The notes: generated from the letters alone by a model not told the origin. A stretch of 64,000 bases of DNA from Candidatus Hydrogenedens sp. (GCA_049968235.1 JBMFRC010000013.1:18422-82421); one strand, 5' to 3'; counted from the first letter of the stretch, positions 12,400 through 40,312 are shown. Numbers and translations are program-made.

Positions 12400-12405
12400 T
12401 ATCTT

Positions 12406-13524: not shown

Positions 13525-13532
13525 GATAGGAT

Positions 13533-15629: not shown

Positions 15630-16942
15630 TGGGAAATAAATTTTTAAAAATACGATGCAAACATTTAAGTGAGGTAGCCAACAAGATACATGAATTGTTC
15701 GGTCCACACGCCATCGTTGTTGGAACACAGGAAGTATATGAAAAAGGGATACGAGGCTGGTTCGGACAAAAAACTTATGAGGTAACTGTTTCCATACCGG
15801 AAACAAATGCGACAGAGGAACGAAAAAAATCTGTTATTGAAAAGAAATATCTCGAACATTCCGCTTCACCTGTTGTAGAGGATGAAACAAAGAAGAAAAA
15901 AATTGAAGAATTTGAGCGTATCATTCGTGAGACACAACAGCGATTGAAACAAAAACCTATCACGGAAGGGGAAAGCATAATTCCCCAGAAAGCAAAGGTT
16001 TCCGGCGAAACAGAAACACCTGTGCTTCCTTTCCCTAAAGAAAAATTACGAGAAGCACCTCCTCGAGAAGATATTGTAAAAGCATTACGAGAGATTAGGG
16101 AACTCTTACAGGTTATGTCCGTAGAAACTGCACCAACAGGAATACCTAATGAAACAATTCCCTTTTATAAAGACCTTGTCCAGCAGGGAATGTCTAAACG
16201 GTTATCTGCCGATTTGATACATACTGTCCTACAAAATATGAGTCCGGAACATGCACGCGACCCAAAAATATTTATTGAACGCCTGGCTCTGGAATTAAGA
16301 AAACGAATTGTTACCACCAACGGTATTCCGGTTTGTAGCGGTGTCCCACGATGGATTGTCTTTTGTGGTCCTACAGGCGTCGGGAAAACCACATCCCTTG
16401 CAAAAATATCCGCTCACTTTGCCATTCATGAAAAAGTGCGTGTAGCCCTTGCCTCCACAGATACCTATCGTGTTGGGGCAACCGAACAACTTAAAATTTA
16501 CGCACAAATAATTGGTGTCCCTCTAAAAATTATTGATGACAAGAAAACCGCATGGGAAACAATGCAGGAATACTCAAAATATGACCTGATATTTTTAGAC
16601 ACCGCCGGCAATAGTCCTTTCAATACACGACAAGTAAAGGAACTTCGCGAGATATTACAGATAATAAAACCCTATGAGACGATTCTTGTCCTGGGAGCAC
16701 ATACACCCTTAGAAGATTTGAGATACAGTGTTGCCGGTTTTTCTTCTCTCAATCCGACAAGTCTCGTTTTTACAAAACTGGATGAAACACGCCGTTTCGG
16801 CTCTATGTTAAGTTTAATTTTAGAAACAGGCTTGCCTGTGAGTTACCTTACACATGGACAAAATGTTCCGGATGATTTTACTCTGGCAACTCCGGGCGGA
16901 ATTGTTGAATTACTAATAGAAGGGAAAAGAAATCGTGGCTGA
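15629..16942 (+). CDS. flhF: flagellar biosynthesis SRP-type GTPase FlhF
   Basis: G1 GPTGVGKTT, DTAG, TKLDET motifs; TAATG overlap with flhA. Confidence 0.8.
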   Translation: MGNKFLKIRCKHLSEVANKIHELFGPHAIVVGTQEVYEKGIRGWFGQKTYEVTVSIPETNATEERKKSVIEKKYLEHSASPVVEDETKKKKIEEFERIIRETQQRLKQKPITEGESIIPQKAKVSGETETPVLPFPKEKLREAPPREDIVKALREIRELLQVMSVETAPTGIPNETIPFYKDLVQQGMSKRLSADLIHTVLQNMSPEHARDPKIFIERLALELRKRIVTTNGIPVCSGVPRWIVFCGPTGVGKTTSLAKISAHFAIHEKVRVALASTDTYRVGATEQLKIYAQIIGVPLKIIDDKKTAWETMQEYSKYDLIFLDTAGNSPFNTRQVKELREILQIIKPYETILVLGAHTPLEDLRYSVAGFSSLNPTSLVFTKLDETRRFGSMLSLILETGLPVSYLTHGQNVPDDFTLATPGGIVELLIEGKRNRG

Positions 16943-17807
16943 CCAGGCAGAAAAATTAAGGAAATTAGCAGGACAAACAAAAAAACAATGTCGTGTCATT
17001 GCCATTACCAGCGGTAAAGGCGGTGTTGGGAAAACCAGTGTCAGTGTGAATCTGGCTCTGGCTCTGGCAACACAGGGAGCCCGTGTCGTTCTTGTGGATA
17101 CCGATTTGGGGTTGGGCAATGTCGAGGTTTTAATGGGTCTGCACTCGTTTTACAATCTGGCTCATGTAATTGAAGGGACAAAAACCTTAGAAGAAGTAGT
17201 CATAAAAGCACCCTTAGGGCTGGAAGTAGTACCAGGTTCGTCGGGACTATCCCGCATTGCAGACCTTGTGGACCGTGACCGTGAACGATTAGTCGAAGCA
17301 CTAATGTCCCTTTGTGAACGAAGTGATTTCTTGCTTTTAGACACCATGGCAGGAATTGGGAAAAATACCGTTTCATTTTGCACCTCTGCTGATGAGGTGC
17401 TGTTAGTAACCACACCCGAACCCTCTTCGATTGTAGACGCTTACGCTATGCTAAAAACTATCCATTATCAGAGAAGCGATGCCGTTATAAAGTTGATTGT
17501 AAATATGGTACTGAACTCTGCACAGGCACAAGCAGTAGCAACTAAATTAACAAATGTGGCACAACAATATTTAGGGCGTGGTTTAATCTATCTCGGACAT
17601 ATTGTTCGTGATACTCATGTCAACCAATCCATTATGCAAAGTCAGCCCTTCTTTATTGCCTATCCAAATGCCTCTGCAAGTCGTTGTGTTGAAGCAGTAT
17701 CACAACGACTATTCTATCAAGCACCTGCTATAGAACCTAAAAAGAAATTGGGGTTCATGAAACGATTAGCACAGAACTTCGGCTGGGTTGTAGGTGGCGA
17801 AATATAG
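16935..17807 (+). CDS. flhG: MinD-like ATPase FlhG/FleN (GTG start)
   Basis: deviant Walker A SGKGGVGKTS; 8-nt overlap with flhF. Confidence 0.75.
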   Translation: MADQAEKLRKLAGQTKKQCRVIAITSGKGGVGKTSVSVNLALALATQGARVVLVDTDLGLGNVEVLMGLHSFYNLAHVIEGTKTLEEVVIKAPLGLEVVPGSSGLSRIADLVDRDRERLVEALMSLCERSDFLLLDTMAGIGKNTVSFCTSADEVLLVTTPEPSSIVDAYAMLKTIHYQRSDAVIKLIVNMVLNSAQAQAVATKLTNVAQQYLGRGLIYLGHIVRDTHVNQSIMQSQPFFIAYPNASASRCVEAVSQRLFYQAPAIEPKKKLGFMKRLAQNFGWVVGGEI

Positions 17808-21523: not shown

Positions 21524-22414
21524 CTAAATTAAAACGCCATCTTCCCAGCCTAATTTAACCAGTTCTATACGGTTATCATCGGCATTTCCCAGATGATATT
21601 TGTCCTGTGCCACCTGTATGTGATGAGGAGAAACAGCGAAAGGTTGTTCATTACCAAAATATTGTAATCGTTTTGCTTTTAATATTCGTAATCCTGTGGC
21701 ATCACAAGCAACTGGATCCGTGCCAATAACCAACCCCTGATAGTTCCATGTATACTCCTTATTATAGTGATGCGGTCCTTTCCCATGAAACAACGGGGTA
21801 ATCATAACAAGAATATTAAGTCGTGTTTTCCCTTTAACAATCGGCAGATCCCATAATCCTGCCAAATTTGCGCACGAATCCGCATGCCAGGTTGGAGGTT
21901 TTTCAGAAAACATAATGTAATTTTTCAACAGACTGCCAACACCTGCCCAATGATGTGTCCGCATGGGACGAACATTAATTAATGCAGTACTATTCTGGAA
22001 AATAGGATTTCGTAACACTCCACGGTCATCAACGGAAACTTTATCCGATGGCACCCCTGCCGATAGCACTCTGGTTTTTAAAATATCTTCCAGTTCGACA
22101 GGAGTACGAGGTGGCCCCGATACATTGCTTTTAATACCTACAATATCTTCAGGCTTAATTACCTTCTTCCAGGCTTCTTCAGGGGTAGTTGTTTGAAATA
22201 GATTTTTCACACCTTCATCAACCATTTTTTCCAGAACGGTTTTATTGATATTTCCATCTGCGTCCAGCAAATCCTTATCCCGTATAAGAACAACACGGGA
22301 TTTTTCTCCTGCTTGCGGAGATTGTGACTCGGAACTATAATGTGGTATGCCAAACAAGAATGCCGTGCCTAAGGCTCCTGTCTGTAAAAACTTTCTGCGA
22401 CTCGTTTTAATCAT
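21524..22414 (-). CDS. Tat-signal secreted protein of unknown function
   Basis: N-terminal SRRKFLQTGALGTAFLFG twin-arginine motif; family not recognised. Confidence 0.5.
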   Translation of the reverse strand: MIKTSRRKFLQTGALGTAFLFGIPHYSSESQSPQAGEKSRVVLIRDKDLLDADGNINKTVLEKMVDEGVKNLFQTTTPEEAWKKVIKPEDIVGIKSNVSGPPRTPVELEDILKTRVLSAGVPSDKVSVDDRGVLRNPIFQNSTALINVRPMRTHHWAGVGSLLKNYIMFSEKPPTWHADSCANLAGLWDLPIVKGKTRLNILVMITPLFHGKGPHHYNKEYTWNYQGLVIGTDPVACDATGLRILKAKRLQYFGNEQPFAVSPHHIQVAQDKYHLGNADDNRIELVKLGWEDGVLI

Positions 22415-22425
22415 AATTCTGGCTC

Positions 22426-23367
22426 CTATCGTTTTATCCTTGTTTCTATATCTTTAACATATAAGTCTGCAGTCTCTCTTTTCTTCCAATCGATAATCAA
22501 TATAAGATATTTATCACGGGAATGTATAAGTATCGAATTAAAGCCAAATTTCTTACTTCTTTCCTCTTTGCCCATTTCCTTTTCAGATTTATCAATAAAA
22601 TTTTTAAAATTTTGACCGACAAGCAAAGCCTTTTTCTTATCCTTATAACGAACAAGGATTATTTGAAACCGTTCATCCTGTTCAGGTAGAAAATAGCGAA
22701 CTAAAATTCCTTCTGTATCCTTGCCCAACTGCAATATATTTTCATCTGTGATGAAAAAGTGCACCTTTAAAAGGTCATAATCCTTAAAATAATGCACATG
22801 ACTTTTAACCTGTCCTTTTTCAGGGAGCAGATGTATAATTTCAGGTGGATTTCCTTTTTTGGGTATTTGATGGTCAATTATTTTGCCTAACTCCATTACT
22901 GTCTGATTTATCTCCGGAGAATCGCCCATTCCTACAATGGATATGAAATAACGGTCCTTCCAGAAAGCAAGTGAATTATTCATTCCTTCCGACTCAACCC
23001 CTAAACCCACATCTTTCTGGTCACGAATGTCATGATGATAGGCACCATACGCTAATGCGGAATTGCCCATATCAAAAATATCCATAAAAATCTCTACTTG
23101 CTGAGGATTAGACCAGCGATAAGCCAACACCTCTCTTACACCTAAGGAACGATAAACTTCTGCATTCCCATCGATATAATCGTATAACGTTTCCGAATCA
23201 TAACGGTCCGGATTTGTCTTTTCTAATTTCCATTGATTTACATTTTCCGGAAAAGAAAATACTATTGTTTCTTGTGTATTTTTATTTGTTGAATTCATAG
23301 TGGCACATGAAATACCTAAACATAGACATAAACAAACCATACATATTTCTATCTTTATTATATGCAT
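22426..23367 (-). CDS. hypothetical secreted/lipoprotein
   Basis: hydrophobic Cys-containing N-terminus; 11-nt gap to the downstream Tat protein suggests co-transcription. Confidence 0.45.
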   Translation of the reverse strand: MHIIKIEICMVCLCLCLGISCATMNSTNKNTQETIVFSFPENVNQWKLEKTNPDRYDSETLYDYIDGNAEVYRSLGVREVLAYRWSNPQQVEIFMDIFDMGNSALAYGAYHHDIRDQKDVGLGVESEGMNNSLAFWKDRYFISIVGMGDSPEINQTVMELGKIIDHQIPKKGNPPEIIHLLPEKGQVKSHVHYFKDYDLLKVHFFITDENILQLGKDTEGILVRYFLPEQDERFQIILVRYKDKKKALLVGQNFKNFIDKSEKEMGKEERSKKFGFNSILIHSRDKYLILIIDWKKRETADLYVKDIETRIKR

Positions 23368-23672
23368 TCACACAAACTTCCTAAAAAATTTATCTTGTGT
23401 CATTATACATCAATTCTTTAATTTTATAAAAGGAATCTGTTTCCCTAAAATTAAAATGAACATTATTTAATAACAATTTTTTATTGCATGAAGAATAAAT
23501 AAGAAATAGAAAGAAGGGAAAGAATTCTTATTAACACACATTACGATTGAGCGAATTTGTGGTTTATCATATAAAGTATTATTTAACTACCGTTCGGTAC
23601 TTTTTTAATAATACCTTATATTTCATTACAAATAAAATGGTAAACTTTCAACGAATTACCTGGAAATACAAA

Positions 23673-24050
23673 TTATTTAGCAAACTGCATATCTGAATAT
23701 GTATTATCATATAGATTGTTTCGGAACTTGGTCCCATATTCCTGTTCATACCAGGAATTAAACACATGGGCATACTTGATTATCCAGTCGTATGTAGCTT
23801 CAGTTCTAACATTTCTCCCCTGCTTTTCAGATTCAATCCATATATGTTTTTCTATCTCCTGTTTCTGGAGAATATTTTTGTGCAAGACCTTGATGTGATT
23901 CGGTGAAAATTCACATAAGTACCTTATCATTTCATCAATTATGTAGTTTTCAAGGGGGAAATTAAAAAACTGGCGAAGATTACATAAGAATAGTTCACGA
24001 TTACAACCTACGGATAAGAATGCTCTACCGTAACAACATTCACTATCCAT
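23673..24050 (-). CDS. hypothetical small Cys-rich protein in AT-rich islet
   Basis: 125-aa ORF flanked by about 300 and 170 nt AT-rich non-coding DNA. Confidence 0.3.
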   Translation of the reverse strand: MDSECCYGRAFLSVGCNRELFLCNLRQFFNFPLENYIIDEMIRYLCEFSPNHIKVLHKNILQKQEIEKHIWIESEKQGRNVRTEATYDWIIKYAHVFNSWYEQEYGTKFRNNLYDNTYSDMQFAK

Positions 24051-24223
24051 AAAACATACTCCTTTATAAAAAATAACATTATGAAAACATATATATAATC
24101 TATCAAAATTTTATACTAAATTCAACATTATTTGTCAACAATTATCAATAAATTTTTCCCATACTTTTGGTTAATTTTGTATTATTTCTATAAGTCGTTG
24201 ATATACCGCATATTATAACATTT

Positions 24224-25798
24224 CTATTGATGTGTCGTTTTTATAATTTTACTGTCGAGTTCTGCTATCCCTGCAATTTTTAACCGCCCTTTGTTAAGAC
24301 TTATTGTGATTTTGATTTTTTTGAATAACTTAATTTTATTGAATAAATCATTTATTTTTTCCGGGTTTTGAAATTGTAATACATTTGATTCCATTAGAAC
24401 TGCGACTGCATTGTTAATTTCTGTAATAAGTTTTTCCGGTTTCACCTGTAGAATCAATGAATAATTACCTTCAGATAAGGTGTTCTTATTTTTTATATGT
24501 TCTATTATCTGATTTTGTAATTCTCGGTTATTCGCAAATAGCAAAGAATCTTCTGCACACTGGATATGTAAATCTGTCTGAGAACTACCAATAAGAGGGA
24601 CAATATATTCATTGGAATTGGGAGAAGAAAGAGCCTTATTTTTCTCTCCAAGAACAATGATGGTAGGGTCGATAATTGCTTGAACAATATCTTCGCACAT
24701 ATTGGGGTTTGTTTTTGCAATAACACAATATCTGGGTATAAAGGGAATAATTTCATCTGTATAAAAAGAATCTACCGCAATATAAAACTCATTATTAACA
24801 AAAGGAGAAAAAGATTTTAACCAGTCTGCAAAGGGAATTTCTGTTGGATTGGTAAAGGGTTGTATAAGACTGGCTTTTGGTATGGTTTCAAAAGCACGGA
24901 GCCATGTTTTAATCGGTACACCTGTGTTAATAGAACAAGAAAAAAGTGTATCTACAGGTTCCTGTAAGGGGGATGAGACAACTTCCGAAAGTAAAATTGT
25001 CCACGGTGTTTCCATATCCGGAGTTATTTGTGTTTCACATTTAAGTCCCAATTGGTCTCTTGTTAAGGCAAGATAGAAATAAATTTGAGAAAAGAGTCCC
25101 TGAAAATCCTCATGTTGAGGTGTGAAAGTTCCCCATGCTAAATGCCTTTCCTGATTCCTCATGAGTTCAGCAGTGATGACTGTCTCTGTTTTTTTGTCTC
25201 CCTTTTGTGTTATGGATTGCACCAGTGTTTCGCGATTGGGTGATAAGAGCAGGACCCTTCCCTTACGTGCATAATATAATTTCTGTTCCGGTAGGTACCG
25301 CAGATTTAGACCACCTGCCCAATCTACTTCTATAGGCTGTGTCCATGAATAAAGTTTTTCAATAACACAACCAATGCATGATAGCCGAACAATTAACAGG
25401 GCATCTTCAAATGTTTTCAGGTCGTTCACAGAAAAATAGAAAAAGTCATAAATAAGATGTTTTATTACCCATAAAGGTATTCGTTGTTGGTCAGATAACA
25501 ATTTCTTTACTTCAAGTATCATTGAAGAAGGTTCTGCCAATTCCCAGAGAGGAGAGGCTATAAGGGTCTGGTAATTCTGCATAATTTGTGGACTGAAAAC
25601 TTGAAAGGCAGGTGCATTAGGAATAAATCGTTCCACAGGATATATATCTCTTGTTGACCATGTGAACCAGACGAAGAAAAGGAAAATAATCAGGGTAAAT
25701 AACTTCAATAAAAACTTTAAAAAACTTTTTTTAGGTCTTCGCCTTCGCATACCAGATACACGATATACACGCATAGTTTCACTCATAAAAATAATCAA
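24224..25798 (-). CDS. membrane-anchored hypothetical protein (N-terminal TM, large extracytoplasmic domain)
   Basis: Arg-rich stretch then one TM helix; ATGA overlap with upstream ceramidase-fusion gene. Confidence 0.5.
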   Translation of the reverse strand: MIIFMSETMRVYRVSGMRRRRPKKSFLKFLLKLFTLIIFLFFVWFTWSTRDIYPVERFIPNAPAFQVFSPQIMQNYQTLIASPLWELAEPSSMILEVKKLLSDQQRIPLWVIKHLIYDFFYFSVNDLKTFEDALLIVRLSCIGCVIEKLYSWTQPIEVDWAGGLNLRYLPEQKLYYARKGRVLLLSPNRETLVQSITQKGDKKTETVITAELMRNQERHLAWGTFTPQHEDFQGLFSQIYFYLALTRDQLGLKCETQITPDMETPWTILLSEVVSSPLQEPVDTLFSCSINTGVPIKTWLRAFETIPKASLIQPFTNPTEIPFADWLKSFSPFVNNEFYIAVDSFYTDEIIPFIPRYCVIAKTNPNMCEDIVQAIIDPTIIVLGEKNKALSSPNSNEYIVPLIGSSQTDLHIQCAEDSLLFANNRELQNQIIEHIKNKNTLSEGNYSLILQVKPEKLITEINNAVAVLMESNVLQFQNPEKINDLFNKIKLFKKIKITISLNKGRLKIAGIAELDSKIIKTTHQ

Positions 25799-28167
25799 AT
25801 CCCTGATTCTATGGATATAAATTCTGAAGGCTTTCCTTCATTATCTCTGACTGATAGCCAGACTTTATTTTCCGTCGGTTCAAAGATTACACTTAAACGA
25901 CTATTCCCATTCCATATTTGGGAAGGAGAACTATCTTGATTATCGGAAGATGTCATAATCGTTTTGAGTTCTTCCGGACTAATAATCCGTTCATCTTCTA
26001 TTTTTTTTATGAGATTTGAATATCTTTTTACAGTAGATTCCGAGGCAGTTGCAATGGAACCACAACCCAATAAGATACCCTGTTTAGAAAGGTCCTGAGC
26101 AATAGTATCTTCCGGTTTGAGCGAAGGGAATAGTAATGCAGACCATTTCCCTTTATTATCCTTCCCTGCAAGGAGTACATGGTATGCTTGTGGGATAATT
26201 ATTTTAGATATTTCTTCCACTGCCGACTCGAGGGTATTACATGTAGATAAAATATGTTTCATTGTAAATTCAGGACCCGGCGTATCCTCCGATAGATTTG
26301 TTTTTATAGAGGCATCCCGAGTTATAGACAAAACGATACCAGATTGATTCATCCCACATAGGGTTCCATCAAACCATGGAAAACCAATCTCAATAAAATT
26401 TACTCCATGGACAGGTTTATGTCGGAATATAACCGGCAATTCATTTATTGCCCAATCAACCGTATGAGCAATAAGAATATCCTTTGCTCCTGCTCGTTCT
26501 CCCAAAATAGCAACAGCGGTGCATAAGGGCGTATCAAATAGCGGATTATAAGATTGAGCATTCTGTATATTTATAGCATTTTGAAGAAGCCAGATTTTAT
26601 CGAACGGCATTTCCGCACCATCAGATATGCCTATGAGTTCATCTACTATTTCTGGATGCAATTTCTTTGCCCATGGTCGGATGCTAATTGCCATAGCAGG
26701 CAAGATTAAAGAACTAATATTTATCCATGATGATGGGATGAAGGAAAAGAAACCCTGTTCTGGCAGGTATCGTCCCTCCAGTATAGGTCTTTGTATTAAT
26801 TCATCAAATCGCTTCTGAATCTGCTCCTTTGAAAATTGTCCCCTTGCCGAACCTCTTTCGTAAGAAGTCCCCGATAGATTTATAATGGAAATGGAACCTA
26901 TCTTATCGATTTGAGGAATATCCACGGGAGTAATCTGTAATTCCGGCTTTTCTATTCCTATTAAAGATAAACATGTATTCAAGACCCACTTTTCTGCCTG
27001 AGGCCCAAAAAAATGAGCTCCTGCCTCGTATGTTTTATCAAAAAGGAGATGTTTCGGTACAAAATACACCAGATAATCATTTGCCAGACCCACTGTGAAA
27101 TGTGCTTTAAATCCTGCCTCTAACGCATGTTCACGAAGTTGGAGTGCGTATTCCACACACACTTCTCCGGGGAAAAAGGAAATAGCCAAACCATTTACCT
27201 GGAGTGAATGGAACAGTACCTTTTCCGGGAAAAAGGTCGCTATACTTATGGGTAGAGGTATTTCTTTTGCTGTTAATTTTAATTTTGCATCGGAAAGAGG
27301 AACACTTTTCTGTGCTTCATAAACACGCCGTGCCAAAATCCTCCCTACTTTTTCAGTTCGAGCCCAGCCGGAACTTTGTTCGGGGGCTTGAATAGTCTGG
27401 TTCCCTTCTGCACCGTTCAGAAAGAATGGGACACAACCCGGTGAAGATAACTGTTCTATTTCAAGATAGTAATATCCCGGATAATCGGAAGAGAAGGAAT
27501 AAAAATCCTCATCCCCAATGGATGTGGGATGCCCTGCCATATTGGCAATTATTGCAATCTCATTCCCGTTTGCATCTTCAATCACAATAAAACCAATTTG
27601 CGGGTCCATCGGACCTACCGGATAACGGCGATTGCAGGTTAAATCGTTTTGCTGAATACTCCCATACCCCAATACAGCATTTTGTGCTTTCTCTTTTGCA
27701 TCGCGAAGTGCCTGACTGATAATACGTGCTGTGCGTTCTACAAGTTCGGGGATATATCTGCCAGAGACAAAGCGGATAGGATAATTTTTGCACATTCCCC
27801 CAAAACCATTGTGGGTATGGGTCGCAGTCATAATAATATTTTGTGACGGGAAATTTTCAGGTGCCATAATAATAACTTTTTCTCGCAGTTCTCGGTCAAT
27901 AACACACAAATCCAAACTAACGAGAAATAGTTCTGTTTCATCATCTGCAAGATAAAGGACATGCGCCCACAAGGGGTCATGAACTGCTCTCGCTCCTTTT
28001 CCTAATCTCGCACCATAACCATTCAGAGGAACACCTAAATCCGGGGTAATTTCAACTTTAACCGCTCCTGCTTTAAGAGCCTCCGTACAAAATGGATAAA
28101 ATAACAGCAAAGAAAATATAAAACAGATAATAAAGACTTTATTTAAAAAGATACTCTGCTTTTTCAT
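25795..28167 (-). CDS. secreted fusion protein: neutral/alkaline ceramidase N-domain plus C45 (isopenicillin-N acyltransferase-like) Ntn-hydrolase domain
   Basis: N-terminal half has the ceramidase Zn block TATHTHNGFGG and GYGARLG; C-terminal about 360 aa begins GTSYERGSARGQ...(compare IAT GTPFEIGYEHGS) and carries the Cys nucleophile context PLCTAVAIL (IAT DGCTTAYC). Confidence 0.65.
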   Translation of the reverse strand: MKKQSIFLNKVFIICFIFSLLLFYPFCTEALKAGAVKVEITPDLGVPLNGYGARLGKGARAVHDPLWAHVLYLADDETELFLVSLDLCVIDRELREKVIIMAPENFPSQNIIMTATHTHNGFGGMCKNYPIRFVSGRYIPELVERTARIISQALRDAKEKAQNAVLGYGSIQQNDLTCNRRYPVGPMDPQIGFIVIEDANGNEIAIIANMAGHPTSIGDEDFYSFSSDYPGYYYLEIEQLSSPGCVPFFLNGAEGNQTIQAPEQSSGWARTEKVGRILARRVYEAQKSVPLSDAKLKLTAKEIPLPISIATFFPEKVLFHSLQVNGLAISFFPGEVCVEYALQLREHALEAGFKAHFTVGLANDYLVYFVPKHLLFDKTYEAGAHFFGPQAEKWVLNTCLSLIGIEKPELQITPVDIPQIDKIGSISIINLSGTSYERGSARGQFSKEQIQKRFDELIQRPILEGRYLPEQGFFSFIPSSWINISSLILPAMAISIRPWAKKLHPEIVDELIGISDGAEMPFDKIWLLQNAINIQNAQSYNPLFDTPLCTAVAILGERAGAKDILIAHTVDWAINELPVIFRHKPVHGVNFIEIGFPWFDGTLCGMNQSGIVLSITRDASIKTNLSEDTPGPEFTMKHILSTCNTLESAVEEISKIIIPQAYHVLLAGKDNKGKWSALLFPSLKPEDTIAQDLSKQGILLGCGSIATASESTVKRYSNLIKKIEDERIISPEELKTIMTSSDNQDSSPSQIWNGNSRLSVIFEPTENKVWLSVRDNEGKPSEFISIESGI

Positions 28168-28297
28168 AATAATTTCTCATATCTATAATCTCTTATTGTA
28201 TCACTGATGATAAGCAATAAGCGACTATATTACAGATGAAACAAATTCGCGAGAAAGATGCCCAACCGTCAACAGATTATCTTTTTATTAGCCTACA

Positions 28298-28705
28298 TTA
28301 ATGATGATGATTACATGTCAAACCCTCTTCATGCTTCAAAGAACCTTGAAGAAAAAGAGTAAGGGCTGTTTTTATATCTTTTTCTGATGTGATTATCGTT
28401 CTTATATTAGCAGACTCGAATCTGCTTTTCATCCCGTATCCCATTCCACCCGCAATTACCACATCAATATTCGCAAATCTTTGTGCTACTTGTTCGTGCG
28501 TATCTATAGAATGATTATGCTCATGGGAATGCGGTTGTGAATGTTCTGAATCATGAGAATGTTGGGCATGCCCGGTAATTGTATTCGGGATATACTCTTC
28601 ATTTACGATATTACCGTTCTCAATCTCGACAATTAAAAAACCTTTCGTTCGCCCAAAATGTGCTGAAATTGTTTTTTTATTATTTGTTGGAATAACAACT
28701 TTCAT
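28298..28705 (-). CDS. NifX/NifB-C-like (dinitrogenase FeMo-cofactor biosynthesis fold, PF02579-like) protein with His-rich insert and C-terminal CNHHH
   Basis: MKVVIPTNNKK..AHFGRTKGFLIVEI and ..IDVVIAGGMGYGM blocks; insert HAQHSHDSEHSQPHSHEHNHS. Confidence 0.6.
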   Translation of the reverse strand: MKVVIPTNNKKTISAHFGRTKGFLIVEIENGNIVNEEYIPNTITGHAQHSHDSEHSQPHSHEHNHSIDTHEQVAQRFANIDVVIAGGMGYGMKSRFESANIRTIITSEKDIKTALTLFLQGSLKHEEGLTCNHHH

Positions 28706-28738
28706 AATAGTTCCTCTCGAATTTCAGATTAGTAATTT

Positions 28739-29065
28739 TTACAGTTCTATGTTTTTCACCTTTGAAGCATGCAGGATGTTCCCTCTGGAACTGCGATAAA
28801 ATGCATGGGGTCCTCTACCACAGCGACATGGACCGATATAAGTCCATTCGGAAGATTCTGTTGTTTCGTTCGACAAATTGCTTTCCGGTGGGTTATCTGC
28901 TGGATTGTTCGGAGACATCCATCTCCAACCTTGACGATAATAACCCGGTGAAGATAATCCGGGGGTCGGACTGTTAGTAGACATCCATCTCCGACCTTGA
29001 CCACCACCGAAACGGAATTGTCCACGATTATTAAATGAATTAGCAAAATTTCTTTGGGTTCTCAT
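28739..29065 (-). CDS. small Arg/Gly/Pro-rich protein with internal tandem repeat (RRWMSTNSP / WRWMSPNNP) and CRCGRGPH motif
   Basis: AAGGAG SD 8 nt before the ATG; DNA-level direct repeat GACATCCATCTCC(A/G)ACCTTGAC about 75 bp apart; overlapping alternative-frame ORFs reflect low complexity. Confidence 0.45.
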   Translation of the reverse strand: MRTQRNFANSFNNRGQFRFGGGQGRRWMSTNSPTPGLSSPGYYRQGWRWMSPNNPADNPPESNLSNETTESSEWTYIGPCRCGRGPHAFYRSSRGNILHASKVKNIEL

Positions 29066-29089
29066 TGTTAATCTCCTTATTATTAAAGT

Positions 29090-29485
29090 TCATTGTTTAC
29101 TTTCATTTTTATTCCGGTCTGATTCTAAAAAATAAGCCTTCTGTTTACAATGCCTATGGCAATGTCTACCACCACCACGCTCCTTCTGTCTGCAAACAAA
29201 ATTGACAGGTCCCCCCATTATCCGAATGGGCTTCCCCTCTACAATAGCACCAACAATCTTCCTGCGTGCCTGCTCAATGATTCGTGAAAATGTGGGGCGT
29301 GAGACTCCCATTTCTTGCCCCGCTTCTTCATGATACATTCCCAAATAATCAGCGAGACGGAGTGCTTCAAACTCATCCAGAGAAAGCACTACTGGCTCTC
29401 TTTCCATTCCTCCCTGTTCACAAGGAATGAATTCCTTAACGGGCGGGCATGCATTCAATCTTCGGGAACAATAGGGTCTTGCCAT
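29090..29485 (-). CDS. DUF134 (UPF0251) family predicted DNA-binding protein with Cys/His-rich C-terminal tail
   Basis: Cys-containing N-terminal block (YCSRRLNACPP...FIPCEQ) plus sigma-70 region-4-like HTH (LSLDEFEALRLADYLGMYHEEAGQEMGVSRPTFSRIIEQARRKI) typical of DUF134; tail CRQKERGGGRHCHRHC. Confidence 0.6.
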   Translation of the reverse strand: MARPYCSRRLNACPPVKEFIPCEQGGMEREPVVLSLDEFEALRLADYLGMYHEEAGQEMGVSRPTFSRIIEQARRKIVGAIVEGKPIRIMGGPVNFVCRQKERGGGRHCHRHCKQKAYFLESDRNKNESKQ

Positions 29486-29514
29486 TATAATTCCTTTTTA
29501 ATTTTCACGATTCA

Positions 29515-29536
29515 TTATGAACATATGTTCATAATT
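29515..29536. promoter_or_regulatory. perfect 22-bp palindrome ATTATGAACATATGTTCATAAT, 30 nt upstream of the DUF134 gene and in the divergent aceE control region
   Basis: read directly; the sequence equals its own reverse complement. Confidence 0.6.
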
Positions 29537-29694
29537 ATAACGCAGTTTCGTAGCAAAAGTAAACAAAAATAACTAATTTTTTAGAAAGATACTCAAAAAA
29601 AAAAAAATAAATTAATCAATTAATTTGTTAGTATAATTGGATAATTAACATGGAATATTTAGTAAAATAAAAAAAAACAGAGGGGACGCTATTT

Positions 29695-32388
29695 ATGAGT
29701 AGTTCTGATTATAAAAATGAGATGCAAGAACAAATCAGTGCAATGACTTTTCCGGATGAAGAATGGATTGATGCATTAAAAGCCTATCTGGAAGAACGAG
29801 GTCCTCAGGCAACAGCAAAGTTGATTCGAAGACTTCAGGATTATACTTACCTTTTAGGTATTCGCAAGCCCTGCCCCGCAACTACGCCGTATGTTAATTC
29901 CATTCCTGTATCGGAACAGCCGGAATATCCAGGTAATCGTGAATTAGAACGAATTATTAAATCATATATCCGCTGGAATGCAATGGCAATGGTAGTTCGT
30001 GCAAACCGCGAAGCAGATGGTATTGGGGGGCATATATCTACTTATGCTTCTGTAGCCACCCTATATGAAGTAGGATTTAACCATTTTTTCAAGGCACGAA
30101 CTGAAGACTACGGTGGTGATTTAATTTATTTTCAGGGACATGCTTCACCGGGAATATATGCACGAGCTTACTTAGAGGGACGGCTTTCCGAGAATGACCT
30201 AAAAAACTTTCGACGCGAATTAAATAAAGGAGGAGGCTTGCCGTCATATCCACATCCACGACTTATGCCGGGATTCTGGCAATTCCCAACCGTTTCTATG
30301 GGACTGGGTCCTATTATGGCAATATATCAGGCACGGTTTAACAAATATTTAGAGAATCGGGGTTTGAAGCCTAAAAATGGTGGATATGTTTGGGCATTTT
30401 TGGGAGATGGCGAGACCGATGAGCCGGAAACATTAGGTGCTATTGGTTTAGCCAGTCGCGAGAAATTAGATAACCTAATTTTCGTCATCAACTGTAACTT
30501 ACAACGTTTAGATGGTCCTGTTCGTGGCAATGGAAAAATTATACAGGAGTTGGAAGCCATATTCCGCGGAGCAGGCTGGAATGTAATTAAAGTGGTTTGG
30601 GGTAGTGATTGGGACCCGCTATTTGAGAAGGATGAACATGGTTTATTGGTAAACGCATTAGGGGATATTGTTGATGGTGAGTATCAGAAATTTTCTGTTT
30701 CATCCGGGGAATATATTCGCAAAAAAATGATAGAACATGAACCGCGTCTGGCTCCGTATCTCGAACAGGTTTCAGATATTCAATTACGCCAATTGCGTAG
30801 GGGTGGACATGACCCGGTAAAGGTATATTCTGCGTATTATCATGCGTTACAAACACAAGGGACTCCTACGGTAATATTGGCAAAGACAATCAAAGGATAT
30901 GGACTTGGTGAAAGTGGCGAAGGGAAGAATATAACCCATCAACAAAAGAAACTCAATGAAGATGAACTACGCGAATTTCGGGCTCGCTTCGGGATTCCTG
31001 TCTCCGATGATGAGATTGCCTTCGCCCCGTTTTGTAAACCACCGGAAGACCATCCCGCTATGATATACCTCCAGGAACGACGCAAGGCATTAGGCGGGTA
31101 TTTGCCCCATCGCGATGTATTGGCACCGCCTTTACCTGCACCTGAAAACGAGCTGTTTGATGAGTTTTATAAAGGGACACCTCGTCCCGTCTCCACAACG
31201 ATGGCATTTGTTTCTATTTTACGAAAATTATTACAACATGAACGGATTGGCAAATTAATCGTTCCTATTGTGCCAGACGAAGCACGCACTTTCGGTATGG
31301 AAGGATTATTCCGTCAAATAGGAATTTATTCTTCGCAAGGACAAAAATACGAACCTGTAGATTCCGAATCGGTTCTGTATTACAAAGAAACAACAGATGG
31401 GCAAATCCTTGAAGAAGGGATTTCAGAAGCAGGTTCAATGGCTTCTTTTATTTCTGCAGGAACCGCTTATGCCAGTCATGGAATTAATACCATTCCTTTT
31501 TTCATCTTCTATTCTATGTTCGGATTTCAGCGGATTGGTGATTTAATCTGGGCATCTGCAGATATGAAAGTACGTGGATTTCTCGTAGGTGGCACTGCGG
31601 GCAGAACAACCCTTGCCGGGGAAGGTCTGCAACATCAGGATGGACACAGTCACCTCCTCGCTATGTCTGTTCCCTGCCTTCGTGCATATGACCCCGCGTA
31701 CGCCTACGAAATAGCCATTATTGTGCAGGAAGGCATTCGTAGCATGTATGAAAAGCAGGAACCGGTATTTTATTATTTAACTGTGGGCAATGAAAACTAC
31801 ACCATGCCACCTATCCCGGCGGGGAAAAAAATACGCGATGGGATTATTAAAGGTTTATATCTACTTCGACCTTCTTCCTTAAAAAAATCAAAAATGAAAG
31901 TAAATTTATTAGGCAGTGGTTCATTACTTAATGAAGCACTAAAAGCACAGTTCGTTCTCGAAGAGGAATTTAATATCTCTGCAGATGTATGGAGTGCCAC
32001 GAGTTATAAAATGCTCCGTGAAAATGCCCTGGAAACAGAACGCTGGAATCAGCTACATCCAATATCTACCAAAAAAATTCCGTATGTAACCGAATGCCTG
32101 AACAACAATGCACATGCAACCATTGCCGTTTCCGATTATGTAAAACTTGTTCCGGACAGTATATCCCGATGGGTTCCGCAAAGGTTTATATCCTTAGGAA
32201 CAGATGGTTTTGGGCGTTCCGATACACGAGAAGCCCTGCGACATTACTTTGAGGTAGATAGCCGGTATATCATACTATCTGCCCTGTCTGCACTGGCTCA
32301 AGATAAGAAAATAGATACAAATATCGTAAAAAAATACATGCGGTCCGCAGATATACCTGCAAATAAAAAGTCTCCTATGGACTTATAA
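29695..32388 (+). CDS. aceE: pyruvate dehydrogenase E1 component, homodimeric type
   Basis: 897 aa; ThDP-binding GDGE..N block (FLGDGETDEPE...NCN) and overall AceE architecture; GAGGGGA SD. Confidence 0.9.
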   Translation: MSSSDYKNEMQEQISAMTFPDEEWIDALKAYLEERGPQATAKLIRRLQDYTYLLGIRKPCPATTPYVNSIPVSEQPEYPGNRELERIIKSYIRWNAMAMVVRANREADGIGGHISTYASVATLYEVGFNHFFKARTEDYGGDLIYFQGHASPGIYARAYLEGRLSENDLKNFRRELNKGGGLPSYPHPRLMPGFWQFPTVSMGLGPIMAIYQARFNKYLENRGLKPKNGGYVWAFLGDGETDEPETLGAIGLASREKLDNLIFVINCNLQRLDGPVRGNGKIIQELEAIFRGAGWNVIKVVWGSDWDPLFEKDEHGLLVNALGDIVDGEYQKFSVSSGEYIRKKMIEHEPRLAPYLEQVSDIQLRQLRRGGHDPVKVYSAYYHALQTQGTPTVILAKTIKGYGLGESGEGKNITHQQKKLNEDELREFRARFGIPVSDDEIAFAPFCKPPEDHPAMIYLQERRKALGGYLPHRDVLAPPLPAPENELFDEFYKGTPRPVSTTMAFVSILRKLLQHERIGKLIVPIVPDEARTFGMEGLFRQIGIYSSQGQKYEPVDSESVLYYKETTDGQILEEGISEAGSMASFISAGTAYASHGINTIPFFIFYSMFGFQRIGDLIWASADMKVRGFLVGGTAGRTTLAGEGLQHQDGHSHLLAMSVPCLRAYDPAYAYEIAIIVQEGIRSMYEKQEPVFYYLTVGNENYTMPPIPAGKKIRDGIIKGLYLLRPSSLKKSKMKVNLLGSGSLLNEALKAQFVLEEEFNISADVWSATSYKMLRENALETERWNQLHPISTKKIPYVTECLNNNAHATIAVSDYVKLVPDSISRWVPQRFISLGTDGFGRSDTREALRHYFEVDSRYIILSALSALAQDKKIDTNIVKKYMRSADIPANKKSPMDL

Positions 32389-35834: not shown

Positions 35835-36637
35835 CTATTCAGCCTTCCTTACCATATCGAACCTTAACTGGTCAATCTCTACCTCTTTTAACAACCGTTG
35901 TTTTGCTATTTTGCAATAGTTTTCATCTATTTCAATACCAATTCCTTTCCTATTCGTTGTGGCACATGCAAGAAGAGTTGTCCCGCTTCCTAAAAAGGGG
36001 TCTAATACCGTATCCCCGACAAAAGTAAACAATTTAATACATCGTCTTGGCAATTCAAGTGGAAACGGTGCCGGATGACCAATTCTCGTTTTGCTTTCTC
36101 CCATAAAAGTCCAAAACCCATTGGTCCACTGGACAAATTCATCTTTTGTTATGTCTGACTCTCCACTTCCACTTGTTTTTTTCCAATTATTTTTATACAG
36201 CACTGCTATCATTTCCACAGGAGCAATTACATACGGTGCCGAAGCAGATAACCATGAACCCCATGCGGTTCTTCAGGAAATATTTTGTTCATTCCAAACA
36301 ATTGCAGAATGGTATTTATAACCTATCTTTTTTGCGATAGTTATTACATCCGCAAATACACTTTGCTGTCCACCTTTGTTCTTATCCAATGGAATATTTA
36401 AACAAAACCTTCCGTCTCCTTTTAATACTCTATACGCTTTATCAAGCCAATTTGCCGTAAATGCCAGATATTCTTTATACGAAACTGTATCGTTATATGA
36501 ATTATAACTAATATCTACATTATACGGAGGGGAAGTTATAATCAAATCGATAGAATTCTCTTCAACACAATCCGTTACCAGGAAATCTGCATTGTAAATC
36601 TGCAGATTATTTCTTTCAAAATAAGTTTTTCTTTCAT
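35835..36637 (-). pseudogene. beta-class (N6A/N4C) DNA methyltransferase, disrupted by a -1 frameshift in an A5 tract (36626-36630) and an in-frame TGA (36273-36275)
   Basis: true start ATG 36637 with GAGGTG SD; motif IV DLIITSPPY precedes motif I DPFLGSGTT; frames reconstructed by hand. Confidence 0.6.
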
Positions 36638-36776
36638 GCTAAACACACCTCAAATCATTATTAACACAATCATACCATTATAATACCCCTTTTAACTTGC
36701 CTATACAAAATATTTACCTACCCGATGTATTGCTTCCTATTTACTATCATCTCATTTTCTTGTATCCCATTTTACT

Positions 36777-38924: not shown

Positions 38925-39022
38925 AATCCATCCTTTACAAATTGCTTATTATAAATTTATGGTATCCATAACAAATCATCCTCTTTCATTATTTTCCCAT
39001 GTCGCAAATAACTGAGAACTTG

Positions 39023-39946: not shown

Positions 39947-40312
39947 AAGTAAACCTTTCTTTTTACAAAATTGCTGGATAAAATGAAATTAGATAATACC
40001 AAAAATATCTATTTATTTTCACAGAACATACTAAATACTCCACCCACAATAGATATTTTTTATATAGGTAATTTACCCATGATACTAATAAAACACAAAT
40101 TGTGGAAATATGAATAAAGAGCAAATTATAAAAAGATAATGCTAAAATCGTTGGGTTTCCTTAACAATATAAATAATTGGGTTAAAAATCAGTAGCCAAG
40201 GGAAGTGATGTTTGTAATAAGGTATATGGATTGAGAAAAATGCGTGTTTTGGTCGTATAGGTATCTATAACATCTTTTTCATTATTGTGTTATTGGGGAA
40301 ATATATCTCTAC

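What the first reader, a model, noticed from the sequence alone, without database searches (positions are those of the whole stretch)
24224..28167. Ceramidase N-domain fused to a C45 (IAT-like) Ntn-hydrolase, co-transcribed with a single-pass membrane protein
The 790-aa secreted protein carries two unrelated amidohydrolase folds in one chain. The N-terminal 430 aa form a neutral/alkaline ceramidase domain with the zinc block TATHTHNGFGG. The C-terminal 360 aa align to the opening block of isopenicillin-N acyltransferase (GTSYERGSARGQ versus GTPFEIGYEHGS) and to its autoproteolytic Cys nucleophile context. Ntn hydrolases of this clan include acid ceramidase and NAAA, so the fusion joins two independent solutions for N-acyl amide hydrolysis. 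I do not recall this architecture being described. The gene overlaps by ATGA with a 524-aa membrane-anchored protein of unknown function, suggesting a dedicated lipid-amide (sphingolipid/aminolipid) processing module. A zinc phospholipase-C-like secreted enzyme at 1834-3327 adds to a lipid-degrading theme.
Basis: partly seen in the sequence, partly recalled or inferred. Interest (0 to 1): 0.75.

Follow-up and report, generated by a model that had tools for sequence, protein, structure and literature searches.

The report
Two-amidase fusion with membrane partner
An exported protein of an uncultivated Hydrogenedens bacterium joins a zinc ceramidase-like enzyme to a self-cleaving cysteine amidase and always sits next to a membrane-anchored partner gene; the same two enzymes are adjacent or fused in other phyla, so they very probably work together on an unknown amide-linked, probably lipid, substrate.

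Summary
ORF 25795-28167(-) encodes a 790-aa protein with a predicted signal peptide. It carries a compact neutral-ceramidase-type zinc domain (res ~31-430) with all seven active-site residues present. It also carries a C45/NAAA-like Cys-Ntn proenzyme domain (431-790, nucleophile C549). HMMs, a confident AlphaFold model (pLDDT 91) and fold search all agree.

The architecture is not unique. More than 115 full-length homologues exist, nearly all in Candidatus Hydrogenedentota MAGs. The membrane-anchored ~520-aa partner follows directly in all 34 assessable related loci, as it does in the window.

New here: in Omnitrophota and Planctomycetia the two enzyme domains are separate, adjacent, often overlapping genes, each with its own export signal. 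They appear to have fused at least twice. That argues strongly for functional coupling.

The partner is lineage-restricted and weakly resembles TP0453, a proposed lipid carrier. Seven deep-branching lineages have lost the Ntn cysteine, and three of them the zinc site too, yet all keep the partner.

The substrate is unknown. The window offers no lipid context. The junction is TTGA or an 8-nt gap, not ATGA. No literature on the fusion was found.

Verdict: a real, uncharacterised variant built from two known amidase families. Moderate interest.

The parts
25795..28167 (-). Gene for the 790-aa two-domain amidohydrolase (stop TGA at 25795-25797).
   Evidence: An identical protein is in NCBI as MGC8738893.1. 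Model pLDDT 91, pTM 0.88.
28078..28167 (-). Predicted signal peptide, residues 1-30. It has a KK n-region and a hydrophobic core, with a T-E-A | L cleavage-type site just before the conserved LKAGAVKVEITP block.
   Evidence: Hydropathy: 53 of 58 homologues have a strong N-terminal hydrophobic stretch. The model shows a helix at 2-23. The cleavage site itself is inferred.
26878..28077 (-). Compact neutral-ceramidase-type zinc hydrolase domain (residues ~31-430). It lacks the Ig-like C-terminal domain of characterised neutral ceramidases.
   Evidence: Pfam PF04734 E=4.8e-16. The profile hits 2ZWS at 8.6e-28 and 4WGK at 3.2e-27. Foldseek hits 2ZWS at 1.4e-24.
27796..27828 (-). Zinc block TATHTHNGFGG (residues 114-124). 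H117 aligns with Zn ligand His97 of P. aeruginosa ceramidase, and H119 with catalytic His99.
   Evidence: Alignments. H117 is conserved in 58/58 and H119 in 55/58.
27019..27636 (-). Span that holds the remaining ceramidase-type site residues: R180 (27628-27630), H213 (27529-27531), E335 (27163-27165), Y368 (27064-27066) and Y380 (27028-27030).
   Evidence: They align with R160, H204, E411, Y448 and Y460 of 2ZWS. Each is conserved in 55-57 of 58 sequences. Coordinates.
25798..26877 (-). C45/NAAA-like Cys-Ntn hydrolase proenzyme domain (residues 431-790). The alpha part is 431-548 and the beta part is 549-790.
   Evidence: NCBIfam NF040521 scores 89.7 bits against cutoff 85. Foldseek hits IAT 2X1D at 3.4e-13 (TM 0.71), NAAA 6DXW at 1.4e-9 and acid ceramidase 5U84 at 1e-8.
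26521..26550 (-). Predicted autoprocessing region. It contains the disordered linker at residues 540-546 and the scissile L548|C549 bond. C549 (26521-26523) is the predicted N-terminal nucleophile.
   Evidence: This linker is the only segment with pLDDT below 50. C549 is conserved in 56/58. It aligns with the Cys of 3GVZ.
25909..26466 (-). Span that holds the Ntn auxiliary residues: H568 (Arg in most of the family), D571, N607, R715 and N753.
   Evidence: D571, N607 and R715 are each 58/58. Position 568 is Arg in 47 and His in 9. The family block GRNLDW aligns with GRNLDY of the NAAA beta-subunit.
24224..25786 (-). Partner gene (520 aa from the ATG at 25786; 524 aa if the TTG at 25798 is used). 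The protein has a basic N-terminus, one TM helix (residues 20-44, window 25655-25729) and a ~475-aa periplasmic alpha/beta region.

Best explanation
This is a two-gene envelope operon of Candidatus Hydrogenedens.

Gene 1 encodes a Sec-exported protein that fuses two amide-bond hydrolases:
- The first is a compact zinc enzyme of the neutral-ceramidase fold.
- The second is a C45/NAAA-like cysteine Ntn hydrolase. It is predicted to activate itself by cutting the L548|C549 bond. That would leave a non-covalent complex of [ceramidase-like domain + Ntn alpha part] with [Ntn beta part].

Gene 2 encodes a type-II anchored periplasmic protein with a weak resemblance to lipid-carrier folds.

The two catalytic modules form a functionally coupled pair. 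In other phyla they are separate, adjacent, separately exported proteins, and they have fused more than once.

The most likely job is stepwise hydrolysis, or hydrolysis plus acyl transfer, of N-acyl amide bonds in an amphiphilic envelope or scavenged lipid-like substrate at the periplasmic face of the inner membrane. In this reading the partner tethers the enzyme or presents the substrate.

Shown: the architecture, the conservation of both active sites, the predicted export signals, the conserved operon, and the split/fused pattern.

Inferred: autoproteolysis, a physical complex, a lipid substrate, and the partner's role.
For: Domains and active sites:
- The PDB profile hits and residue-level alignments are.
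- The AlphaFold model has pLDDT 91 and pTM 0.88. Its only disordered stretch lies just before C549.
- Foldseek matches neutral ceramidases, then IAT, NAAA and acid ceramidase.
- The zinc-site set HHRHEYY and the Ntn set C/T/(R or H)/D/N/R/N are conserved in most of 58 diverse homologues. They are also conserved in 27 species representatives.

Export and operon:
- The fusion has a signal peptide, and the partner has a basic N-terminus followed by one TM helix.
- The partner lies directly downstream in all 34 assessable Hydrogenedentota loci, often with 4-8-nt overlaps.

Coupling of the two enzymes:
- In 16 Omnitrophota/Planctomycetia-type loci the two domains are separate adjacent genes with gaps from -61 to +224 nt, most of them overlapping or within about 20 nt. 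Each C45 protein has its own signal peptide or lipobox.
- In 5 further loci they are fused.
- All of these keep the catalytic residues.
- A neighbour-joining tree places the second fused clade among split forms.

Lipid leads:
- An enoyl-CoA hydratase gene lies directly upstream of the fusion in 12 Hydrogenedentota loci.
Against: - There is no evidence at all on the substrate.
- The window's neighbours have no link to lipids.
- The N-domain fails the neutral-ceramidase equivalog model by a wide margin, and it lacks the C-terminal domain.
- Seven deep-branching lineages have lost the Ntn Cys (L026, L028, L031, L034, plus L025, L027, L035). Three of them (L025, L027, L035) have also lost zinc-site residues. 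All seven keep the partner, so catalysis is not universally required.
- The window's own clade has His568 where most of the family and NAAA have Arg.
- The partner model is only medium quality (pLDDT 74), and its fold matches are weak.
- The partner family is confined to this phylum: 153 representatives among 1.84 billion proteins. It was not detected beside the split pairs. It is therefore not needed for the coupling of the two enzymes.
- The tree has no support values.
- I could not measure the geometry between the two active sites, because model coordinates are not exposed.
Confidence: 0.55

Rival explanations
1. It is a true sphingolipid catabolic module. Both domains would be ceramidases, one of neutral type and one of acid type. 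They would degrade host or environmental ceramides and sphingolipids for carbon.
For: All neutral-ceramidase zinc and catalytic residues are present. The C-domain resembles acid ceramidase and NAAA. An enoyl-CoA hydratase gene lies upstream in 12 related loci, which could feed released fatty acids into beta-oxidation.
Against: The ceramidase equivalog HMM scores 31.7 bits against a cutoff of 1200, and the Ig-like domain is absent. No sphingolipid gene was seen among the annotated genes of the window or the recurrent neighbours in related loci. The pair recurs across the whole sampled phylum with a dedicated partner, which looks more like housekeeping than niche catabolism. Two enzymes for one bond is redundant.
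Confidence: 0.15
2. It is an N-acyl remodelling machine that works without CoA. The Ntn domain, like isopenicillin-N acyltransferase, would form an acyl-thioester on C549 and pass the acyl group to another amine. The zinc domain would supply or remove the free amine or fatty acid. From memory, neutral ceramidases can also run in reverse.
For: The closest solved fold of the C-domain is IAT, an acyltransferase. It matches the C45 'acyltransferase/hydrolase' model. Obligate pairing of two amide-active enzymes fits a two-step exchange better than plain hydrolysis does.
Against: There is no biochemical evidence. The GRNLDW motif is closer to the hydrolases NAAA and acid ceramidase than to what I recall for IAT. 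No acyl acceptor or donor can be named.
Confidence: 0.13
3. The substrate is not a lipid. The pair would process a soluble or polymer-bound amide, such as a peptide, a peptidoglycan-derived compound, an N-acyl-homoserine lactone, or a beta-lactam or secondary-metabolite side chain.
For: From memory, C45 and related Ntn families include enzymes acting on beta-alanyl amines and penicillin precursors. AnmK and glycosidases are elsewhere in the window. The compact N-domain may lack the ceramide channel, which I could not test.
Against: Every solved relative of both domains with a known substrate handles hydrophobic acyl or steroid amides. The partner is membrane-anchored, and its only fold matches are lipid-binding types.
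Confidence: 0.12
4. The main role is structural or sensory, not catalytic. The fusion protein and its partner would form an envelope complex in which the old enzyme pockets serve as binding sites.
For: Seven deep-branching lineages have lost the Ntn Cys, and three of them the zinc site too, yet they keep the full-length protein and the partner gene.
Against: 27 species representatives, including the window, keep both catalytic sets intact. So do all split and fused outgroup forms. That implies purifying selection on catalysis in most lineages.
Confidence: 0.05
5. The fusion is an assembly or annotation artefact: two genes joined by a sequencing error.
For: None found. Split forms do exist in other phyla.
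Against: The 790-aa sequence is identical in independent MAG assemblies. More than 115 full-length homologues come from separate contigs. The model shows a continuous, confidently packed two-domain fold.
Confidence: 0.01

Closest known systems
Neutral ceramidase (P. aeruginosa PaCD, PDB 2ZWS/2ZXC; human ASAH2, PDB 4WGK; Pfam PF04734)
   Same: It has the same catalytic fold (Foldseek E=1e-24). It has the same zinc ligands and catalytic residues: H117, H213, E335 and Y368, plus H119, R180 and Y380. It is also exported.
   Different: Sequence identity is only ~15-19%. The catalytic domain is about 400 aa and more compact. The Ig-like C-terminal domain is replaced by an Ntn hydrolase. It fails the NCBIfam equivalog model (31.7 bits against 1200). 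Its substrate is unknown.
Isopenicillin-N acyltransferase and the C45 family (PDB 2X1C/2X1D/2X1E; Pfam PF03417; NCBIfam NF040521)
   Same: This is the best solved fold match for residues 431-790 (E=3.4e-13, TM 0.71). The whole proenzyme profile is matched above the curated cutoff. It shares the opening G-x-x-[YF]-x-x-G block, an internal Cys nucleophile and a flexible linker before it.
   Different: Identity is ~12%. The scissile bond is L|C here, whereas I recall G|C in IAT. The domain is fused behind another enzyme and exported to the periplasm, where no acyl-CoA is available. The Pfam AAT score is marginal.
Acid ceramidase and NAAA (C89 Ntn hydrolases; PDB 5U7Z/5U84, 6DXW/6DY3), which work with saposin activator proteins
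   Same: It has the Cys-Ntn fold. Its GRNLDW block aligns with GRNLDY of NAAA. The idea of a lipid amidase helped by a separate lipid-presenting protein is a possible functional analogy for the partner. That analogy rests on my own knowledge of saposins.
   Different: These matches are weaker than those to C45. There are three extra residues between the Cys and the R-x-x-D motif. The window's clade has His instead of that Arg. The partner is unrelated to saposins.
TP0453 of Treponema pallidum (PDB 3K8G-3K8J), a membrane-associated lipoprotein proposed to carry lipids and glycolipids
   Different: There is no detectable sequence similarity. The match covers under half of the partner. TM-scores are ~0.4, E is ~2e-3 and the model is of medium confidence. 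The partner is anchored by a TM helix, not by a lipid.

Membership tests
Neutral/alkaline ceramidase (PF04734; EC 3.5.1.23) | Match to the family HMM above the curated threshold | tested here: met
   PF04734 scores 58.9 bits against GA 32.1, but over profile positions 4-227 of 509 only. The rest of the domain is recovered in PDB profile alignments.
Neutral/alkaline ceramidase (PF04734; EC 3.5.1.23) | Zinc ligands His, His, Glu and Tyr, plus catalytic His, Arg and Tyr (PaCD H97, H204, E411, Y448; H99, R160, Y460; numbering recalled from the PaCD structure paper) | tested here: met
   H117, H213, E335, Y368, H119, R180 and Y380 align to exactly these positions of 2ZWS. Each is conserved in 55-58 of 58 sequences.
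Neutral/alkaline ceramidase (PF04734; EC 3.5.1.23) | Catalytic-domain fold | tested here: met
   Foldseek hits 2ZWS at E=1.4e-24 and 4WGK at E=2.2e-22.
Neutral/alkaline ceramidase (PF04734; EC 3.5.1.23) | Ig-like C-terminal domain (Ceramidase_alk_C) | tested here: not met
   No such Pfam hit at E<=1. Residues 431-790 are an Ntn hydrolase instead.
Neutral/alkaline ceramidase (PF04734; EC 3.5.1.23) | Orthology to characterised enzymes (NCBIfam equivalog NF041649) | tested here: not met
   31.7 bits against a cutoff of 1200.
Neutral/alkaline ceramidase (PF04734; EC 3.5.1.23) | Hydrolysis of ceramide | not testable with these tools
   Needs an enzyme assay.
C45 autoproteolytic acyltransferase/hydrolase (IAT-like Ntn) | Match to the family HMM above the curated threshold | tested here: met
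   NF040521 scores 89.7 bits against 85, end to end. Pfam AAT is inconclusive: 21.2 bits on the full protein and 24.1 on the C-half, against GA 23.2. Many homologues carry a precomputed PF03417 hit.
C45 autoproteolytic acyltransferase/hydrolase (IAT-like Ntn) | Alpha-beta-beta-alpha Ntn fold | tested here: met
   Foldseek hits IAT 2X1D at E=3.4e-13 with TM 0.71. NAAA, acid ceramidase, BSH and PVA follow.
C45 autoproteolytic acyltransferase/hydrolase (IAT-like Ntn) | Internal Cys nucleophile with auxiliary Arg/Asp/Asn/Arg residues | tested here: met
   C549 is 56/58. D571, N607 and R715 are each 58/58. Position 568 is Arg in 47 and His in 9, with His in the window. The Cys aligns with the Cys of 3GVZ, and R-x-x-D aligns with NAAA.
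C45 autoproteolytic acyltransferase/hydrolase (IAT-like Ntn) | Autoproteolytic cleavage that exposes the Cys as the new N-terminus | not testable with these tools
   The only indirect hint is the disordered linker at 540-546 just upstream of C549.
Acid ceramidase / NAAA (C89) | Sequence membership | tested here: inconclusive
   The family profile hits the NAAA beta-subunit at E=4.3e-5 over ~180 residues. The C45 model and IAT fit better. No C89 family appeared in the Pfam or NCBIfam scans.
TP0453-like / LppX-LprG-type lipid carriers (partner protein) | Fold similarity and a lipid-binding cavity | tested here: inconclusive

The most novel reading that the evidence does not exclude
The zinc ceramidase-like enzyme, the Cys-Ntn enzyme and (in Hydrogenedentota) the membrane-anchored TP0453-like protein together form an undescribed periplasmic machine. 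It would deacylate and re-acylate an amide-linked envelope lipid of Hydrogenedentota, Omnitrophota and Planctomycetia without CoA or ATP. The partner would act as a bacterial counterpart of the saposin-type activator proteins. This would point to a class of N-acyl envelope lipids, and a turnover pathway for them, that has not been recognised in these uncultivated phyla.
Probability: 0.15. Interest if true: 0.8.

Novelty: new variant of a known kind. Interest (0 to 1): 0.5.

Why it matters
Neutral ceramidase (zinc) and acid ceramidase/NAAA (Cys-Ntn) are textbook examples of unrelated folds that solve the same chemistry. Here relatives of both are obligately paired. They are adjacent in some phyla and fused, apparently independently, in others. 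That makes a strong and testable prediction: the two act together on one substrate or pathway.

The pair recurs throughout the sampled members of one candidate phylum together with a lineage-specific membrane partner. This suggests an envelope housekeeping role in organisms whose lipid biology is unknown.

If the substrate is found, it would do three things:
- It would assign a function to the large, uncharacterised family of short bacterial ceramidase-like proteins.
- It would give bacterial C45 enzymes their first physiological context.
- It could reveal new amide-linked lipids, or useful amidases and transacylases.

The lineages with dead active sites also offer a natural experiment in pseudoenzyme evolution.

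Tried and rejected
- **F8 as a remote partner homologue.** In Omnitrophota a ~500-aa gene (F8) sits just upstream of the split pair. I tested it against the partner and rejected it: hhalign probability 0.2%. By eye it looks like a CCA-adding/HD-domain enzyme.
- **Partner HMM beside the split pairs.** It found nothing at E<1e-3.
- **L037 as an exception without a partner.** I rejected this. tblastn finds the partner directly downstream (E=2e-38), broken by a 100-N scaffold gap.
- **A lipid theme in the window.** Twenty-six further window ORFs were annotated. Apart from the distant PLC-like gene, none relates to lipid metabolism.
- **Regulatory RNA and signals.** No Rfam match reached its gathering score in 23000-30000. 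Promoter-like and terminator-like matches do not exceed the shuffled controls.
- **Deeper partner alignment.** The third homologue search returned essentially the same 16 proteins. The partner model therefore rests on only 15 sequences.
- **AFDB fold search.** The library was not available.
- **Literature.** Four searches found nothing on the fusion or on the short ceramidase-like family. One search on Hydrogenedentes physiology was badly framed and uninformative.
- **Alignment artefact behind the degenerate active sites.** I rejected this after an independent MAFFT alignment gave the same result.

Full report

Yes. The minus strand carries an uninterrupted 790-aa ORF at 25795-28167, followed by a second ORF that ends at 24224.
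- TATHTHNGFGG is at residues 114-124.
- GTSYERGSARGQ is at residues 433-444.
- The Cys context DTPLCTAVA is at residues 545-553.

The HMM results are as follows:
- Pfam gives Ceramidase_alk at E=4.8e-16 (58.9 bits against GA 32.1).
- Pfam gives a marginal AAT hit: 21.2 bits on the whole chain and 24.1 bits on the C-half, against GA 23.2.
- NCBIfam places residues 432-768 end to end on the C45_proenzyme model, above its curated cutoff (89.7 against 85).

The identical protein is deposited from independent Candidatus Hydrogenedens sp. MAG assemblies: MGC8738893.1 on an 82-kb contig and MGC8845279.1. The partner, MGC8738892.1, is the next accession. A frame break is excluded.

One detail is wrong. 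The stop TGA lies at 25797-25795. The longest downstream ORF begins at a TTG that overlaps it as TTGA. The deposited 520-aa model and the family alignment begin at the ATG at 25786, 8 nt after the stop. Either way the two genes are tightly linked.

**2. The N-terminal domain**

phmmer and a 58-sequence family profile hit only neutral ceramidases in the PDB for this half: 2ZWS at 8.6e-28 and 4WGK at 3.2e-27. I counted through the printed alignments. H117, H119, R180, H213, E335, Y368 and Y380 fall on His97, His99, Arg160, His204, Glu411, Tyr448 and Tyr460 of the Pseudomonas enzyme. From the published structure work I recall those as the four zinc ligands and three catalytic residues. Each is conserved in 55-58 of 58 homologues.

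Pfam sees only the first 227 of 509 profile positions. PF04734 is known to give many such partial matches (PMC4443539). The second half is nevertheless present and aligned.

This is not an orthologue of characterised ceramidases. The equivalog model scores 31.7 bits against a cutoff of 1200, and the Ig-like C-terminal domain is absent.

**3. The C-terminal domain**

The AlphaFold model built on the family alignment is confident (pLDDT 91, pTM 0.88). Its only disordered segment, residues 540-546, lies directly before C549. That is the usual look of an Ntn propeptide linker.

After the ceramidases, Foldseek returns these matches:
- isopenicillin-N acyltransferase, precursor and mature forms (E=3.4e-13, target TM 0.71);
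- the NAAA precursor (1.4e-9);
- acid ceramidase precursors (1e-8);
- 3GVZ;
- bile-salt hydrolases.

The family profile aligns its 'lCTmfa' block with 'aCTLWG' of 3GVZ. It aligns 'vGRNLDW' with 'hGRNLDY' of the NAAA beta-subunit. I recall the latter as the catalytic Arg and Asp of NAAA.

C549 is conserved in 56/58 sequences. D571, N607 and R715 are each conserved in 58/58. The window's own clade has His568 in place of the Arg.

**4. Localisation**

The fusion has a classical signal peptide, and 53 of 58 homologues show a strong N-terminal hydrophobic stretch. The partner has 4-10 Lys/Arg residues followed by a single TM helix (residues 20-44 in the window protein). That predicts an N-in, C-out anchor with about 475 residues in the periplasm. 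Both gene products should therefore meet outside the inner membrane.

**5. Distribution**

The fusion is a family, not a curiosity. There are 147 hits, and more than 115 of them are full length (~770-840 aa) at 100% down to 32% identity. Most have precomputed PF04734+PF03417 annotation.

I scanned one genome per GTDB species and annotated all fetched loci with domain HMMs built here. Full-length fusions occur almost only in Candidatus Hydrogenedentota MAGs. A few records carry other labels such as Nitrospiraceae, which I did not verify.

The partner gene lies immediately downstream in all 34 assessable loci. The one apparent exception, L037, is a scaffold gap.

An exhaustive HMMER search of 1.84 billion representatives finds only 153 partner relatives. 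Most are ~500-550 aa and the rest are shorter fragments. The partner has no Pfam or NCBIfam family.

**6. The key new result: the two enzymes are a coupled pair**

Among the 46 more distant loci, the pattern is as follows:
- In 16 loci (Omnitrophota, Planctomycetia and unclassified MAGs), a ~420-460-aa ceramidase-like gene is directly followed by a ~400-420-aa C45-like gene. Most of these gaps are overlaps or under about 20 nt, including several 4-nt overlaps.
- In 5 further loci the two are fused into 820-920-aa proteins (the copy in L040 is cut by the contig end).
- One 'split' case, L054, has an N-run at the junction and is probably fused as well.

All of these keep the HHRH(E/D)YY set and the C/R/D set; the Asn equivalent to N607 is Ser in three of them. 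The separate C45 proteins carry their own signal peptides or lipoboxes, and these are absent from the fused forms.

A neighbour-joining tree of the ceramidase-like domain puts all Hydrogenedentota fusions in one clade. It nests the other fused clade among split forms. The tree has no support values, so 'at least two independent fusions' is likely but not proven.

The same domain also occurs alone in many phyla (25 loci, though at least one of these is cut by a contig end). The C45 partnership is therefore a specialisation within a broad family of short ceramidase-like proteins.

**7. The partner**

**8. What tempers the enzymatic story**

Seven deep-branching Hydrogenedentota lineages have lost the Ntn Cys:
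- L026, L028, L031 and L034 still have an intact zinc site.
- L025, L027 and L035 have also lost zinc-site residues.

An independent alignment confirms this. All seven keep the partner gene. Across the assessable Hydrogenedentota loci the partnership is thus more constant than catalysis. Even so, 27 species representatives, including the window, keep both sites.

**9. Context**

The window's flanking genes do not help. They are DUF6599, DUF362, a small ORF with no hit, a Nitro_FeMo-Co protein and DUF134. The wider window is mixed chromosomal content:
- flagellar export genes;
- AnmK, DprA and Adk;
- a GH2 glycosidase;
- an M20 peptidase;
- the pyruvate dehydrogenase complex.

The PLC-like gene is real but lies 21 kb away.

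In related loci, an enoyl-CoA hydratase gene precedes the fusion in 12 Hydrogenedentota loci. Across several phyla, an alpha/beta-hydrolase lipoprotein (F3) and a secreted PHP-domain protein (F7) recur beside ceramidase-like genes. These hints are compatible with stepwise dismantling of a complex acylated, phosphorylated molecule. They are unproven.

**10. Mechanism, novelty and score**

My best reading has confidence about 0.55. It is a periplasmic, self-activating double amidase whose two modules act together on N-acyl amide bonds of an amphiphilic substrate, with the partner tethering the enzyme or presenting the substrate. The rivals are:
- plain sphingolipid catabolism;
- CoA-independent acyl remodelling;
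- a non-lipid amide substrate;
- a mainly structural role.

No paper on the fusion was found. Databases label it only as a ceramidase N-terminal domain protein.

Both domains belong to known families. The new elements are the conserved pairing and fusion, and the lineage-specific partner. I therefore rate it a new variant of a known kind, with moderate interest (0.5). The coupling signal is solid and testable. The function is unknown, and the hosts are uncultivated.

Noticed in passing
L025, L026, L027, L028, L031, L034, L035 (fusion genes; e.g. L025:4920-7331, L027:2006-4351): Deep-branching Hydrogenedentota lineages have lost the Ntn Cys nucleophile. L025, L027 and L035 have also lost zinc-site residues. 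All still keep the full-length protein and the partner gene, so these are possible pseudoenzymes. P0119, which has both sites dead, stands for 72 member sequences.
   Followed up: partly
L039, L042, L044, L046, L049, L050, L051, L061, L068, L073, L077, L083 (family F3); L041, L042, L044, L046, L051, L065, L067, L077 (family F7): An alpha/beta-hydrolase lipoprotein (F3, weak DLH/S9/BAAT_C hits) and a secreted PHP-domain protein (F7) recur next to ceramidase-like genes. They appear with or without C45, in Omnitrophota, Nitrospirota, Thermodesulfobacteriota, Bacteroidales and Planctomycetota. This may be a wider multi-enzyme module.
   Followed up: partly
L001, L002, L004, L005, L012, L017, L018, L022, L026, L029, L032, L034 (gene directly upstream of the fusion): An enoyl-CoA hydratase (ECH_1, E=7e-67) sits directly upstream, on the same strand, in 12 Hydrogenedentota loci. 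It does not do so in the window. ScpA follows the partner in 9 loci.
   Followed up: partly
L041:1938-5091 and L044:1726-5023: Nitrospirota/Manganitrophaceae loci carry two ceramidase-like genes in tandem. The first (568-603 aa) matches only the N-terminal half of the domain (site pattern HHDH---). The second (~465 aa) is complete.
   Followed up: no
window 1834-3327 (-): This 497-aa protein has a Zn_dep_PLPC domain at residues 55-177 (E=5.5e-9) and about 300 further residues with no confident family. It lies 21 kb from the operon, separated from it by unrelated genes.
   Followed up: partly
window 21524-23367 (-): Two genes separated by only 11 nt encode exported-looking proteins downstream of the operon: a DUF6599 protein (313 aa) and a DUF362 protein with a twin-arginine-like N-terminus (RRKFLQTGALG, 296 aa). 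Their function is unknown.
   Followed up: no
window 28298-29485 (-): A small gene cluster lies upstream of the fusion. It comprises a DUF134 HTH protein, a 108-aa Gly/Arg/Trp-rich ORF with no family, and a Nitro_FeMo-Co (NifX/NifB-like) protein with a His-rich insert (HSHDSEHSQPHSHEHNHS).
   Followed up: no
window 11605-17807 (+): A flagellar export gene cluster carries the Pfam families expected for FliR, FlhB, FlhA, FlhF and FlhG (Bac_export_1, Bac_export_2, FHIPEP, SRP54, AAA_31/ParA). This Hydrogenedens population therefore appears to encode flagella.
   Followed up: no
window 36001-40000: This stretch has strongly negative GC skew (-0.24 to -0.26), the most extreme in the window. It covers a 584-aa beta-helix protein (36777-38531) and an NAD-dependent epimerase/dehydratase (39023-39946).
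   Followed up: no
window 51875-54766 (-): This 963-aa protein has four LysM domains at its C-terminal end (E=6.5e-50). The N-terminal ~700 residues have no hit at E<=1e-4.
   Followed up: no
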